A stretch of DNA of 64,000 bases from Eledone cirrhosa. Taxonomy: Eukaryota. Every line of letters begins with the position of its first letter. The first letter of the stretch is position 1. The notes beneath the pieces were generated by a model, which was given only the letters and a program-made list of their open reading frames with translations, had not been told where the DNA came from and did no database searches. The translations under genes were made by a program, and so were the position numbers. Positions 25,720 to 64,000 of the stretch are shown here, in pieces. The stretch is taken from assembly GCA_964016885.1 (NCBI GenBank), contig OZ024746.1:51274001-51338000 (forward strand), given 5' to 3'.

Positions 25720-28436
25720 TATATAAATGAAAGGTAAGAATTAAAATACTTGAGTGTGTTGGAGTTAAACACCCTCTTCATATTATAGAAATGACAGTAT
25801 AAGATATAGCTCAATGTAATTAAACAGAGCCGAAGAATTATAAAAAATAAAAAATAAACCAAAGAAGCCTTCAATACATCAAAAGTCTGTATTAGCCAAC
25901 AATGTTTCGTCCTATTAAGGACTCATCAGGGCAAGTAAAGCTACAAGAAGCACTATCGGCCAATACAAGCCAAAACCTCAGAAGAATATGGAGTATACAT
26001 CTATTAAAGCTTAGGAAAGATATCAAGGAAAAGTTGGCTAAGATTAAGAGTGAGCAGTTACAAACATAGATATAGACCAAATAGCAAGGAAGTGATTAAC
26101 ATGTTGAACCCACATTGCAAATATTGTATAATGCAAAAACTTGAAACACAAATGGTAGTATAATGCGAGAATTACAGTACGATATAGAATATAATATAAT
26201 ATAATAGATGGTGATAATAAAAAGCTTAATATATGTATATATATATATATCTATACATATACACATTAGTACAAACACAAACTAACACTTATTAAGTATT
26301 TAAATATATATATATATATTGTTTACAGTATAATATAATAAAGATAAAAATAAGAATAAAGATAAAAATAAAAATAAAATATAATATATAATTCCCTGTC
26401 AGTGTGCATAAACAATATAAAAACATTATAATAACATTATAATAACAATATTATAATATATTGGCATCAAAAGATATACAAAATTACATCATACATATAA
26501 TTCAAGGTTAACAAATAGTATAAAGTTTTACACAGGGTAAGAAAAAAATCATATAGAACTAAATTGTGTTGAAAAAATTGTGTTGAAAAAATATCTATAC
26601 CATTGCAACAAATACACGGAGGTCAAGTCATTTTACATTGGCATAAATATTACCAAAATATCACAAAATATAACAGAACAGTGCCTCAAATAACAGACAT
26701 ATATTAAAATCTATAATACGATTACATAAAAATGATATGATATAACAACGTTAATATCAAATAGCAAACAGAGTCTAAGGAAATGCTTAATATATATATT
26801 TACGTGGTTGACACACACAGACATATATTAATGAAATTACATGAATCAGACAGACAGCGTGTGGTAGTAAAAAAATAAATAAAATAAACCGAAGATCGAA
26901 AAACAAAAACAAGTATATTTACTTAGGTGTCACAAGCGGTTAAGTAAAAGAAAAAAAGATAGAAATGTAAACCGGAGAATTGACTAGAAAACCTTTTTAA
27001 ATTAATTAATATTAAAAGTATTTAAAATACATATTTAGTCACTTCAAAATTGGCTAGTGTTTAAGTCATCAAAATCGTATAAGTTTAAGATATCTCAATA
27101 AAATTATCAATAATAGAGTAAAATATGCTCCGTTCAGTCGAATAGCGTTATCAAATAAAAGGACTCTAAATAGAACTATGGTAGACCAATGGGAACAGAA
27201 AGAAGAGAGATTATGGAGGATAGGAAGGAGCATAAAAGTAAAATCAATATATTATATAATATCATAAAAAGGAGCATAAAGGTGAAATTTATATATAGTA
27301 TAATAGAAGGGGTGGATATTAAGTGTGTAGAGGAGGAGGTTCATTAGTTGAATTAGACTCCAAACAAAGTATTTAATAAGATATGAACTCATAAGGTGTT
27401 AGTAGTGAAACTATAATAATGCTTAAGAAGATAGATAGGGTATGGTAGCCAAAAGACTATGGAAACTAAAAACGAAAAGCTGTAAAAAACTAATAATAAT
27501 AATGATGATGGTAATCAAAATGAACCTAAACAAAAAAGATAAGGAAATATAGCAGCTAATGGATACGATTTAAACTACCAGAACTTTTAGGTCTATAATA
27601 GAAGAAAGAATTAGAAATGGCATGGGGGCAGGAAGAAAATATCTCAGACTTTCTATTAAGCAAAAGTTCCCTAGAGAAAATTATAGAGTGGGTCTCTAGG
27701 ATACAGAGATTACAGAATTTAGTGTGTGTTGATAGGTTATTAGAGCGTGCTACTATACGCCAATTAAGGCTATATGGCATACTAGCCCCTTTAAGATCCC
27801 AGATATGGTGTGCTAAAGAAGTAGAGTTCTTAAACTTAACATGCTTAAAATTAGAGATATGAGAATTAAACCTAGTTTTAAAAGTATTAGATGTGGAGCC
27901 TATATATGTGCTATTAGTCTTAACTTCACAAGCATAAACAATGTTCCTAGAGAGGCAGTGACCATTTAAAGGGCAGTTAATACTTACTCTACAGATACAC
28001 TTCCGGGTGATTGACCGGCTGAATGAGTGATGCATCACTCCTAGGGTTATTATAAGATAAGGTCTGCTCAGGTGGTAAGGCATTAATGGATCTATCAATA
28101 CTAGTAGTACGCAAAGGGAGTAGCTGTCCCTAATTTTCCTATTGTTAGTGCTAGCTAAATGAGAAATAATATTAGGGGTGGTAGAGAATGATAGTTTAAT
28201 TACATTTTTATTAAAAATACCATGGTATTTATTAGAAGAAGGGAAATTTTTCTCTAAAATAGAAAAGAAAGACATAGGGATGTTAGTTAATACTTCATGA
28301 TCATAAGGCGGGTTAAAATAAGTATTGAATCTCCTCCTATTTCTATCCTTACCAACTCTACCGTTATCCAGTATCCCACTAATAGGATCAGGGTTACTAC
28401 GAGGACTAGTTGAAACAACATTATTAGAAGCAGCCA
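25720..28436 (-). mobile_element. 5'-truncated Penelope-like element: GIY-YIG ORF end, ~1.6 kb 3' UTR and hammerhead, bounded by (TA)n on both sides
   Basis: YFNPPY...[26 protein letters not shown]...[13 protein letters not shown]...CNLCILE in ORF 27556-28436, HHR at 25895-25932. Confidence 0.88.
25895..25932 (-). ncRNA. Minimal type I hammerhead ribozyme, intact
   Basis: Minus strand reads GCC-CTGATGA-GTCCT taat AGGAC-GAAA-CATTG-TT-GGC. Confidence 0.88.
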
Positions 28437-29690
28437 TATATATATATATATATGTATATATATATATATATATATATATATATATATATATATATATATA
28501 TATATATATATAAGTATATATATATATATATATATGTATATATATATATATATATATATATATATATATATATATATATATATATATATATATATATATA
28601 TATATATATATATATATATATATATACGGGAGAGATGACCCCTTAGCCTTTGTCAAGGCAGAATTCTAGGAGAAGGAAAACTCTGATATAACACCTGCAA
28701 CCCTGATGGTATCAAATGATATTGACTAGTTCTTCTTTTTGGTAAATATCATCTTGGTTAAGAGAGTGGGACTGGCTTTGTGCAGTGCCTTTGCTCACTA
28801 TAAAAGCTTCACGGCACAGGCATTACTTTATATCTGGAGATCTCTCTGCACTTGTCGTCACATGGTATCATGAGCCCAGCATTATGTGTCAATAATTGTC
28901 ACAAGTGTAGTGTCTGTACCAGAGTTTTCAAGTCGCTGGCTGGACTAAAAAGTGACACTCGTTCAGCGCATCGGCAGGACTTCTCCTACATGGATGTAAA
29001 GTAGTGGCCGTACTCGAAAACTAGTTGGCAGCCACCATATATATATATATATATATATATATATATATATATATATATATATATATATATATATATATAT
29101 ATATATATATATATATATATGTATATATATATATATATGCATATACATGTATATATATGTATATATATATATATATATATGCATATACATGTATATATAT
29201 ATGTATATATATATATATATATGCATATACATGTATACATATATATATATATATATATATATATATATATATGTATATATATATACATACATATATATAT
29301 ATATATATATATATATATATATATATATATATATATATATATATATATATATATATGTATATATATATATATATGTATATACATGTATATATATATATAT
29401 ATATATATATATGCATATACATGTATACATATATATATACATACATATATATAAATATATATATATGTATATATACACATACATATATATATACATATAT
29501 AAATATATATATATACAGTATATATATATGTATACATATATATATATACATATACATATACATATATATATACACATATATACATATATACACACACACA
29601 CACATATATATATATATATATATATATATATATTATATATATATATATATATATATATATATATATATATATATATATATATATATATAT

Positions 29691-29815
29691 AATATAGATG
29701 AGATTCTACAGGACTAGAACTGTTTCATTCTTTAGAAACCATCAGGAATCCCTGGGATTCCTGATGATTTCTAAAGAATGAAACAGTTCTAGTCCTGTAG
29801 AATCTCATCTATATT
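29691..29815. repeat. 125 bp palindrome (1 mismatch) carrying a hammerhead core on the right arm
   Basis: Centre at 29753. CTGATGA-tttctaaagaat-GAAA-CAGTTCTAG-TC at 29761-29794. The mirror copy reads CTGATGG. Confidence 0.8.
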
Positions 29816-61995: not shown

Positions 61996-62066
61996 TGTTT
62001 TATCTGATGAAAACACAAATATTATTGCATGATGATGTTTGTTTTTGAAATGCGCATAATAAAATA
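61996..62066 (+). ncRNA. Type I hammerhead ribozyme, intact
   Basis: TGTTTTAT-CTGATGA-AAAcACAAATATTATT gcat GATGATGTTTGTtTTT-GAAA-TGCGCA-TA-ATAAAATA. Confidence 0.9.
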
Positions 62067-62523
62067 CATGGAACTCCTTTAACCATCTTTTGATCTTATA
62101 TTATGCATACTCCAGTCCTACAAACTGTAGAGTGCTTCTTATCCGATATCTGCATTGCTTTATTGTACTACAATAAAACTCACCTCCTACATATATATAT
62201 ATATATATATATAAAGTGAAGAATAACATGGTCAACAGTACAAACAAGGAGATTTATTAATAAATATATATATATCTTAGTCTTAGTGTTAGATTCTTCC
62301 GCGCCGTTCGGTACATCGAGCAGTAAGTATTCGCCAACGGTCACGCTCAGCGGGAACTATTTCGAGACCGTGCCAGGTGATGTTGGCTGCCATCAGGTCC
62401 TTCCGGAACGTTCGTCGCCAGGTGATCCGTGGGCAACCCCGCCTCCGTTTACAGTCGATATATATATATATATATATATATATATATATATATATATATA
62501 TATATATATATATATATATATAT

Positions 62524-64000
62524 TTACTAAAATAACAGATTAAAGTTTAAGCAAAGAATCGCTGCTTTCGCCCTTAACGGGATCTTCTGAAACTAACAAA
62601 GTCAATCTGTAAACGCAGAACTAGATATTTCAAAAAACGTTGCAACCGGAGGAAGACAGGAAGACGATACTTTGATTCGTGGAAACGTTCGCTGGCTAAG
62701 AACGGGAAAAAACGAATAATACGTCATTAATAGGAGCGGTGAAAAACAATTACGCGCAAAGACAGAACCACGCTTATGGTATAAAAGAGGTCGTAGACTA
62801 ATATTCTCTTAGGTGGTGCATAGAGACGTTATCTGGCAATGAACGAGAAAACGAAGATAATACGTCATATGTGGAGCGTGGAGAACAATAGCACGCAAAG
62901 ACAAAACCACGTAAATGGTATAGCAGAAGTCGTAGACTAAAATTCTAACTAGGAGACCAAATGAATCTCCGCTACAGAGTTAAGAACAAGTAAATAAATA
63001 CAATACAGAAGTAATAGAAATAAATAAATACATACACGCAAACAAATACGTACATACACAAGCATACGCAAAACCTTACCATAGGTATACAAAACCACGC
63101 ACATATAAATATGTGTGTGTGTGTGTATGCGTGTATACTTATATAAACGTATATACATAAATAAATACGTATATAACAAGCGCACACACATACCTACATA
63201 TACATACACGAATGTTCGGAGACGTAAGTCAACTAAAACAAGAAGTACACGTATACACACACCCACCATACGCACGAACCCGCATACTCACACAGACGCA
63301 AAACTCCCGTATACACATAGCCAAACCCTATGTACCAGAATATATAAAATTATACGCCAAAACAATCAAATATACGTACGAGAAGGTATACGTACCTTCA
63401 CAAAACAAACGGGTAATACATACTTACCTATGAAAATAAGTAAAGGAATAAACAAAACATATACGTAGCTCCCACATCAAGACGTAAAATATCCACGTAT
63501 AGATCGTACTATCCGTTAGGGTATAAAGTGGGGCTGTAATACAGGAAAGTTTTGTGCAATTTATGTTTACAAGCCGAAATTGCCTCAGAATTTTTGTTTA
63601 AGATGTGGTCTGTGGCGTAGAGTATTTCCAGGGCCTCAGCGGCTCAGATGTCACATGGTCTTTTATTTCCGTTATACGATCTAGCCCTAGCTAGGATCTC
63701 CCAGTGTAACTTATATTGGGTGTGGTTGTCTTTTAGACTCCAGATATAAGCTGAAAGTGACGTCATATTCCTTCTTAGAGGGTAACGAAAAGAATTGGTA
63801 TGCATGTAAAGGCGCTGCTTGAAACTATTGGCGGTTAACCCTATGTAGGCCCTACGGGACGTGGGTGTTACAACCTTACATTTGTAGACAATGTTACTAG
63901 AGAGGTAACATTTTTAATAGAAATACTATTAAAATGTCTTACCCTACGACTCCTAACCTTGCACATAACGTCACAGCTTCAAATTTAGCTAAACTACCTA
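62524..64000 (-). mobile_element. Decayed Penelope-like element 3' portion (GIY-YIG remnant absent from the ORF track, 3' UTR with ~140 bp tandem duplication, HHR-like motif, (TA)n); runs off the window
   Basis: Manual translation of 63907-63516 (-): LSSNIVYKCKV...RAYIGLTANSFKQRLYMHTNSF...TSLSAYIWSLK...WEILARA...CDI*AAE...LNKNSEAISACKHK. Confidence 0.85.
62544..62594 (-). ncRNA. Hammerhead-like motif with variant core (CAGAAGA)
   Basis: Minus strand reads AGTTT-CAGAAGA-tCCC gttaa GGGc-GAAA-GCAG cgattct TTGC-TT-AAACT, with distal pairing ACAGATTGA/TTAATCTGT. Confidence 0.65.

What the first reader, a model, noticed from the sequence alone, without database searches (positions are those of the whole stretch)
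25720..64000. Same architecture in four independent PLE families: GIY-YIG stop, 0.9-1.6 kb UTR, HHR, short tail, (TA)n
Seen in 28436->25720 (-), 44670->43276 (-), 54389->58050 (+, and its mirror) and 64000->62524 (-). A fifth (45335->47469) keeps only the GAAA-CGGTCG-TA half. Proteins are clearly diverged and UTRs unalignable, yet HHR position and orientation are constant. This links the orphan HHRs elsewhere in the window to heavily 5'-truncated PLE ends and implies a (TA)n target preference.
Basis: partly seen in the sequence, partly recalled or inferred. Interest (0 to 1): 0.7.

Follow-up and report, generated by a model that had tools for sequence, protein, structure and literature searches.

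The report
Hydra-type Penelope retrotransposons, altered hammerheads
The shared layout is real but already described: these are five families of a known TA-repeat-seeking jumping gene that carries a hammerhead-shaped RNA motif near its end; what is less ordinary is that very successful families carry changed core letters in that motif (likely weakening self-cutting, untested) and that mirror-image insertions nearly always pair one short end with one long end, likely because both broken DNA strands start copying the same RNA.

Summary
The layout is confirmed, with corrections. All five elements are C-terminal GIY-YIG Penelope-like elements with Hydra-clade motifs (DKT, CxCX5C, no CCHH, CxxC/CxH). 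Craig et al. 2021 already report 3' hammerheads and (TA)n targeting for this clade, including an octopus family. Cervera 2014 already proposes that orphan hammerheads are truncated PLEs.

Corrections: element 4's core is CAGAAGA (U4A) in 13,730 genome matches against 39 canonical. Element 5 is not a half ribozyme: it has a U3-A8 covariant core, a long helix II and a UTR of about 0.6 kb. Some orphans are retrozyme-like repeats of about 420 nt. Only 2-3 of 13 random EN hits keep a hammerhead downstream.

Additions: each family has two 3' ends 70-133 nt apart, followed by TA in 65 of 70 arms (background 6%). Inverted insertions pair one short with one long end in 23 of 24 resolved cases. An RCTC/GAGY stem follows the short end in 8 of 8 families. 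A second intact family is fixed for U4C. No RNA run was available. This scan noted the U4A family and the two-armed footprint before, on other DNA of this genome.

The parts
25725..28435 (-). E1: 5'-truncated Hydra-type PLE (thumb/linker/EN 28365-27556, 3' UTR, long end) between two (TA)n runs
25895..25932 (-). E1 type I hammerhead, canonical CUGAUGA core at 25929
   Evidence: family copies
43278..44670 (-). E2: EN C-terminal remnant (44669-44409), 3' UTR with an internal 200-nt duplication, short end, TA on both sides
43313..43383 (-). E2 hammerhead, canonical core at 43375, long helix II
45286..45335 (-). E5 inverted mini-arm: reverse complement of 47420-47469, starting at the short end, next to (TA)n
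45335..47520 (+). E5 main arm: partial RT, linker, frameshifted EN, 3' UTR and part of the long tail; cut by an oppositely oriented hammerhead repeat
47319..47419 (+). E5 hammerhead: U3-A8 covariant core at 47323, long helix II, palindromic helix III, predicted cut after 47415
50691..54317 (-). E3 mirror arm: 5'-truncated copy, 99.3% identical, ending at the long end; hammerhead core at 50878
54318..58048 (+). E3 full-length arm: end of tail, short 5' UTR, intact 737-aa RT-EN ORF (54389-56602), 1.45-kb 3' UTR, short end
57941..58007 (+). E3 hammerhead, CUGAGGA core at 57949
61774..62190 (.). Two-armed mini-insertion of the E2 family: minus arm (core 61871) ends short, plus arm (core 62004) ends long, TA on both sides
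62524..63907 (-). E4 minus arm: EN (63904-63509, one internal stop), 3' UTR, short end
62544..62594 (-). E4 hammerhead with family-wide U4A core (CAGAAGA) at 62589
63904..64000 (+). Start of the E4 plus arm; it continues about 1.5 kb past the window and ends at the long end
29692..29890 (.). Palindromic two-armed hammerhead mini-element (cores 29745 and 29761), short plus long end; parent EN not found
42500..42762 (+). Orphan 3' end related to E3 (core 42572) with the long tail
10559..10600 (+). Hammerhead of a non-coding repeat with a unit of about 420 nt (retrozyme-like); second copy at 30401

Best explanation
These are five diverged families with the protein motifs of Hydra-clade Penelope-like retrotransposons, with a type I hammerhead fold in the 3' terminal repeat and ends in (TA)n; they likely insert by cutting both strands of a TA repeat and reverse-transcribing one tandem-derived RNA from two fixed start sites. 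Shown: ORF and motifs, hammerhead topology and orientation, TA at the ends, two 3' ends per family 70-133 nt apart, short+long pairing in inverted insertions, a covarying RCTC/GAGY stem just after the short end, and family-wide core variants (U4A, U4C, U3-A8). Inferred: (TA)n is self-complementary, so a dimeric RT-EN sees the same target on both strands. One nicked strand primes cDNA at the short site and the other at the long site; the two cDNAs stop at random lengths and are joined head to head. This gives mirrors, mini-palindromes and most orphan hammerheads. The tail stem is likely the protein-binding signal. The template must extend past the hammerhead cut site, so either uncut RNA or the downstream product of a tandem transcript is copied. 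Efficient self-cleavage is probably not required, though the core is probably still under some selection.
For: Motifs RWR, DKT, CNCX5C, no CxxC inside GIY-YIG, CxxC and CxH match the Hydra description; File S1/S2 lists (TA)n and a 3' hammerhead for Hydra families including Hydra-1_Obim. E3 copies found by protein search: 24 of 30 have the hammerhead anchor 1,317-1,493 nt past the EN, two more are visible. Family 4: 15 of 19 EN-linked cores lie at 940-960 nt. TA at 65 of 70 arms against 6.2%. In random blocks, 83 of 92 hammerhead loci have TA within 250 nt downstream against 18.6% background (73 of 82 without the retrozyme-like family, whose TA is internal). Divergent arms in family 4: 23 short+long, 1 short+short, 0 long+long, 2 unresolved; in blocks 14 short+long and 1 short+short of 20 pairs, 5 left out. 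The tail continues into the 5' UTR in tandem copies with no TA run. Tail stem in 8 of 8 families, as ACTC/GAGT in 6 and GCTC/GAGC in 2, against 1.2% background. In vitro, an anole PLE cuts and extends both strands, starts RT at two internal sites that bound the tail, is predicted dimeric, and does not need hammerhead cleavage.
Against: No tree with named Hydra sequences was built; the motif is RWR, not RWK; units are 3.3-4.2 kb, not under 3 kb. Only 2 of 13 random EN hits have a clear hammerhead within 1.7 kb downstream (a third at 1.9 kb). Several insertions are single-armed with non-TA 5' junctions (14 of 25). Frangieh et al. saw no strand difference in RT start sites, whereas the pairing here is strict. 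Arkhipova 2013 explains head-to-head palindromes by self-priming on an antisense template. The hammerhead regions mostly do not fold better than shuffles (z -2.3 to +0.9). No empty site was seen, so the length of TA before insertion is unknown.
Confidence: 0.75

Rival explanations
1. Same elements, but mirrors arise by fold-back self-priming or template switching of one cDNA (or antisense template), not by two primers on one RNA.
For: Proposed for head-to-head PLE palindromes; many junctions are flush or overlap by a few bases.
Against: Copying one cDNA back would give two arms with the same end, yet 23 of 24 resolved pairs differ, and some long arms hold only tail sequence absent from the short arm (L221, L223, L234, L241).
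Confidence: 0.15
2. The TA runs are written or greatly expanded by the RT at insertion (a tail, as in some LINEs) rather than being a pre-existing target.
For: Both start sites carry short TA-like microhomology; TA makes up 5.3% of the sampled blocks.
Against: TA also flanks 11 of 25 truncated 5' junctions; elements nest inside shared TA tracts; (TA)n is reported as the Hydra target.
Confidence: 0.1
3. The position-4 hammerheads are dead relics fixed by drift in master copies, so the ribozyme has no role in these elements.
For: All single CUGA mutants were low in activity in a type III hammerhead scan; cleavage was dispensable in vitro; Naiads thrive without canonical hammerheads; E4 spread to at least 13,730 ends.
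Against: Fixed changes cluster at position 4 (U4A once, U4C in two families) or are compensated (U3-A8 in three families), while no G5 or A9 variant passed the descriptor; helices I-III are kept; U4C viroids remain infectious. The descriptor is biased to intact folds.
Confidence: 0.35

Closest known systems
Hydra clade of C-terminal EN+ PLEs, incl. Hydra-1_Obim (Craig et al. 2021, PMC8557442; sections 11 and 15, passages, supplement part 2 read)
   Same: RT then GIY-YIG, DKT, CxCX5C linker, no CCHH, CxxC/CxH, 3' type I hammerhead often with U.U at 10.1/11.1, (TA)n insertion, inverted 5'-truncated arm, tail at one end.
   Different: Units 3.3-4.2 kb with 0.6-1.6 kb to the hammerhead (published mostly under 3 kb); RWR for RWK; tails 70-133 nt (30-40 described for PLEs); all Hydra cores listed in File S2 are CUGANGA, whereas U4A, U4C and U3-A8 are fixed in families here; very high young copy number.
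PLE hammerheads (Cervera and de la Pena 2014, PMC4209133; parts 1-2 of 4 read)
   Same: Hammerheads in terminal repeats, opposite-strand pairs 100-700 bp apart, singles read as truncated PLEs, a U3-A8 core in Schistosoma Cercyon.
   Different: No position-4 variant in the parts read; helix III here is 3-5 bp, closer to canonical motifs.
Poseidon PAc of Anolis in vitro (Frangieh et al. 2024, PMC11167929; parts 1-2 of 4 read)
   Same: Two RT start sites bound the tail; both strands cut and extended; AT-rich target; hammerhead cleavage dispensable.
   Different: Different clade; start sites inside the ORF there, upstream of the ATG here; no strand-specific use of the two sites reported.
Metazoan non-LTR retrozymes (PMC7229834, passages; 10.64898/2026.07.22.740005, part 1 and passages)
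   Same: Fits the roughly 420-nt tandem-unit family at 10559/30401.
   Different: Does not describe elements 1-5, which encode RT-EN.
Natural hammerhead core variants (Perreault et al. 2011, PMC3088659; section 8 and passages)
   Same: U3-A8 covariation, U10.1-U11.1 mismatch and viroid U4C are reported.
   Different: U4A is not named in the text read (figure letters could not be seen).

Membership tests
EN+ Penelope-like element | Single ORF with RT followed by GIY-YIG EN | tested here: met
   737-aa ORF with YRDD and IVY..YVG; Pfam GIY-YIG E 2e-4 for E1 only, just under cut-off, none for E3 or E5
EN+ Penelope-like element | Tandem/inverted structures with an optional one-sided tail | tested here: met
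Hydra clade | DKT in place of DKG | tested here: met
   E3, E4 family and the U4C family; region absent from E1, E2, E5 copies
Hydra clade | CxCX5C linker before GIY-YIG | tested here: met
   E1, E3, E5, E4 family, U4C family
Hydra clade | No CCHH motif; CxxC and CxH around conserved E and N | tested here: met
   alignment
Hydra clade | N-terminal RWK motif, no GxKF/Y | tested here: inconclusive
   RWR in three families (conservative change); E3 has one GVKF string at residue 84 of unknown homology
Hydra clade | Canonical 3' hammerhead | tested here: inconclusive
   Canonical core in E1-E3; full fold with variant core in E4 (U4A) and E5 (U3-A8)
Hydra clade | (TA)n insertion | tested here: met
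Hydra clade | Generally short, under 3 kb (descriptive, not diagnostic) | tested here: not met
   tandem periods 3,259 and about 4,190 nt; E3 about 3.8 kb
Hydra clade | RT groups with named Hydra families in a tree | not tested
Naiad/Chlamys | N-terminal EN | tested here: not met
   EN is C-terminal
Active hammerhead ribozyme | Self-cleavage at NUH | not testable with these tools
   needs in vitro assay or raw RNA reads
Non-LTR retrozyme (10559/30401 family) | Non-coding tandem unit of 150-450 nt with a type I hammerhead | tested here: met
   422-nt period in one tandem pair; upstream repeats downstream sequence; circular RNA not testable

The most novel reading that the evidence does not exclude
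Hydra PLEs insert by obligate twin priming: a dimeric RT-EN bound to a conserved tail stem cuts both strands of palindromic (TA)n and starts two cDNAs on one RNA, one on each side of the stem. Their hammerheads tolerate U4A and U4C as working, possibly protein-assisted, natural variants. This would explain PLE mirrors and tails in one model and supply natural families to test what PLE ribozymes do.
Probability: 0.4. Interest if true: 0.68.

Novelty: new member of a known kind. Interest (0 to 1): 0.4.

Why it matters
The additions bear on two open questions named by Craig et al.: how PLE inverted and tailed structures form, and what PLE hammerheads do. E3 offers an intact young protein (149 of 150 scored EN copies identical), defined start sites and a simple target, so the twin-priming model is directly testable. 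Families fixed for canonical, U3-A8, U4A and U4C cores in one genome are a ready-made series for ribozyme assays.

Tried and rejected
Rfam: the E-value scan listed only TA-rich microRNA look-alikes among the 150 rows shown and the gathering scan gave nothing, so a custom descriptor was used. RNA evidence: no RNA holder listed; not evidence either way. Laying contigs showed no U at position 4 in X1, X4 or X5 (a second organism label, few contigs); weak, and X1/X4 may be the source sample. E4 as a decayed single copy: rejected. E5 as a half hammerhead: rejected. Naiad: rejected by domain order. EN parent for the 29745/29761 family: none within 1.5 kb in 30 copies; the query favoured mini-palindromes. 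Minimum-energy folding does not by itself support most of the hammerheads. Literature: no paper held hammerhead + U4A + mutant + cleavage; searches showed no report of U4A or of a counted short/long pairing; subscription papers are not covered. Only part 2 of 59 of the Craig supplement was read; bioRxiv supplements were closed. A tool alignment of four proteins failed on a stop codon; script alignment and motif scans cover the question.
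Full report
Setting. The window lies on a 3.0-Gb animal assembly. Named homologues of the E3 protein include Argonauta hians proteins, so an octopod-like host is an inference. TA repeats cover 5.3% of four 200-kb blocks taken at round coordinates, so every TA claim needs a background.

Observation. tblastn with the intact 737-aa ORF (54389-56602) finds all five elements and the mirror. EN domains are 27-40% identical and UTRs do not align across families. A type I hammerhead descriptor finds 6 motifs in the window against 0.15 per shuffle, and 50 in 800 kb against 2 in 20 shuffles; homology extension gives 92 loci in the blocks. 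Stop-to-core distances are about 1,630 (E1), 1,035 (E2), 1,347 (E3) and 920 nt (E4), all same-strand. E5 is about 570-600 nt in most of the 17 of 30 copies that reach the EN.

What they are. E3, the E4 family and a further family show RWR, DKT, CNCX5C, no cysteines between GIY and YIG, and CxxC and CxH. This is the Hydra clade of Craig et al. 2021 (PMC8557442), described with canonical hammerheads and (TA)n insertion in almost all families. Their supplement lists Hydra-1_Obim from Octopus bimaculoides with both features. Cervera 2014 already reports opposite-strand hammerhead pairs and reads single motifs as truncated PLEs. Membership rests on motifs; no tree was built.

Distance test. Within families it holds: 24 of 30 protein-found E3 copies have the hammerhead anchor 1,317-1,493 nt past the EN (two more, three run out of flank, one ends in TA). 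In the first 40 clusters of family 4 on contig C1, 19 of 60 cores have an EN upstream, 15 of them at 940-960 nt; the other 41 are truncated ends. Against it: of 13 EN hits in random blocks only 2 have a clear hammerhead (952 and 1,263 nt), and a third at 1,907 nt; most of the others are diverged, fragmentary hits.

TA test. TA follows 35 of 38 short ends and 30 of 32 long ends against 6.2% (the long-end tally was spoiled by a TA run inside the tail and redone). In blocks, 83 of 92 loci have TA within 250 nt downstream, 43 upstream, background 18.6%; 10 of the 83 are the retrozyme-like family with internal TA. Truncated 5' junctions meet TA in 11 of 25 cases, four more set aside as ending in the element's own simple repeat. 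This favours a pre-existing target.

Two ends. Each family ends at two sites: tails of about 88 (E3, E4), 95 (E2), 101 (E1), 133 (E5) and 70 nt (29761 family). In tandem copies the tail runs on into the 5' UTR about 45 nt before the ATG. Divergent arms of family 4 are short+long in 23 cases, short+short in 1, long+long in 0, unresolved in 2; one of the 23 spans 3 kb and may be two insertions. In the blocks, 14 of 20 divergent pairs are short+long, 1 short+short, and 5 were left out (3 retrozyme-like, 2 unresolved). The window shows the same at E3, E4, E5, 61774-62190 and 29692-29890. An RCTC...GAGY stem starts right after the short end in 8 of 8 families, in two covarying forms, against 1.2%; earlier scan notes also mention a shared hairpin. 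A one-sided tail is known qualitatively, and two RT start sites, two-strand extension and a predicted dimer are reported for an anole PLE. I infer twin priming on one RNA at a palindromic target; this step is untested.

Ribozyme cores. E4 has intact helices I-III but the core CAGAAGA. Exact 18-letter matches: 13,730 with A, 39 with T, 69 with C or G, so canonical copies are at mutation background. E5 has UUGAAAA preceded by a 4-bp helix I strand and followed by a 4-bp helix II stem that forms in the unconstrained fold of a family copy; 29 of 30 copies keep the core, and 3 of 200,000 shuffles give the pattern; 825 exact matches genome-wide. The window copy has lost one helix II base. A variant scan of 864 kb found U3-A8 in two more families, U4C in two, and no G5 or A9 variants. 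One U4C family has 4,492 matches, 99 of the first 100 with C, and an intact 820-aa Hydra-type ORF about 1,435 nt upstream. The other has 329 matches, by hand count 66 C, 32 T, 2 G of the first 100. U3-A8 and viroid U4C are known; I found no report of U4A. Single CUGA mutants were weak in one scan. The most likely reading is reduced but tolerated activity; dead relics remain a serious rival.

Orphans. Some are PLE ends (61871/62004 with E2; 42572 related to E3). The 10559/30401 family is a non-coding repeat with a 422-nt period, like animal retrozymes. The 29745/29761 family has the two-end footprint but no EN in 30 copies.

Earlier notes of this scan describe the Hydra assignment, the two-armed footprint and the U4A family on other DNA of this genome. 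I reached these readings before looking; they are not independent support.

Verdict. Real, mostly known: new families of the Hydra clade. Interest 0.4, carried by the core variants and the short+long rule rather than by the layout.

Noticed in passing
window 35285-40450: L1/Tx1-like LINE: zinc-knuckle ORF1 (35285-36469) and APE-RT ORF2 broken by frameshifts.
   Followed up: partly
window 7822 (-); loci L291-L300: Hammerhead family with long helix II split into C-core and T-core subfamilies at position 4 (329 matches).
   Followed up: partly
L301-L303 (G000:C1): Intact 820-aa Hydra-type element, period about 4.19 kb, fixed U4C core, 4,492 matches.
   Followed up: partly
window 47520-47890 (-): Hammerhead repeat (core 47622, A6G in this copy) inserted into the E5 tail; relatives look like tandem units of about 400 nt.
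   Followed up: partly
window 22890 (+) and 32843 (+): Related hammerhead elements sharing a downstream sequence; 32843 is palindromic with a CGGAUGA core.
   Followed up: no
window 43182 (-), 18114, 24342, 32152, 44789, 45161, 9409: Further hammerhead-like or decayed motifs beside TA; parents not determined.
   Followed up: partly
window 3328-3720, 19631-20027, 20311-20496, 40752-40934, 50273-50470, 59440-59825: Abundant repeat of about 190 nt in tandem and dispersed copies, probably a SINE.
   Followed up: no
window 61605-61720 and 62213-62262: Short perfect palindromic elements in TA, nested around the E2-family mini-insertion.
   Followed up: no
G000 C2 199292/199693 and C3 113714 in the sampled blocks: Two more compact U3-A8 hammerhead families.
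   Followed up: no
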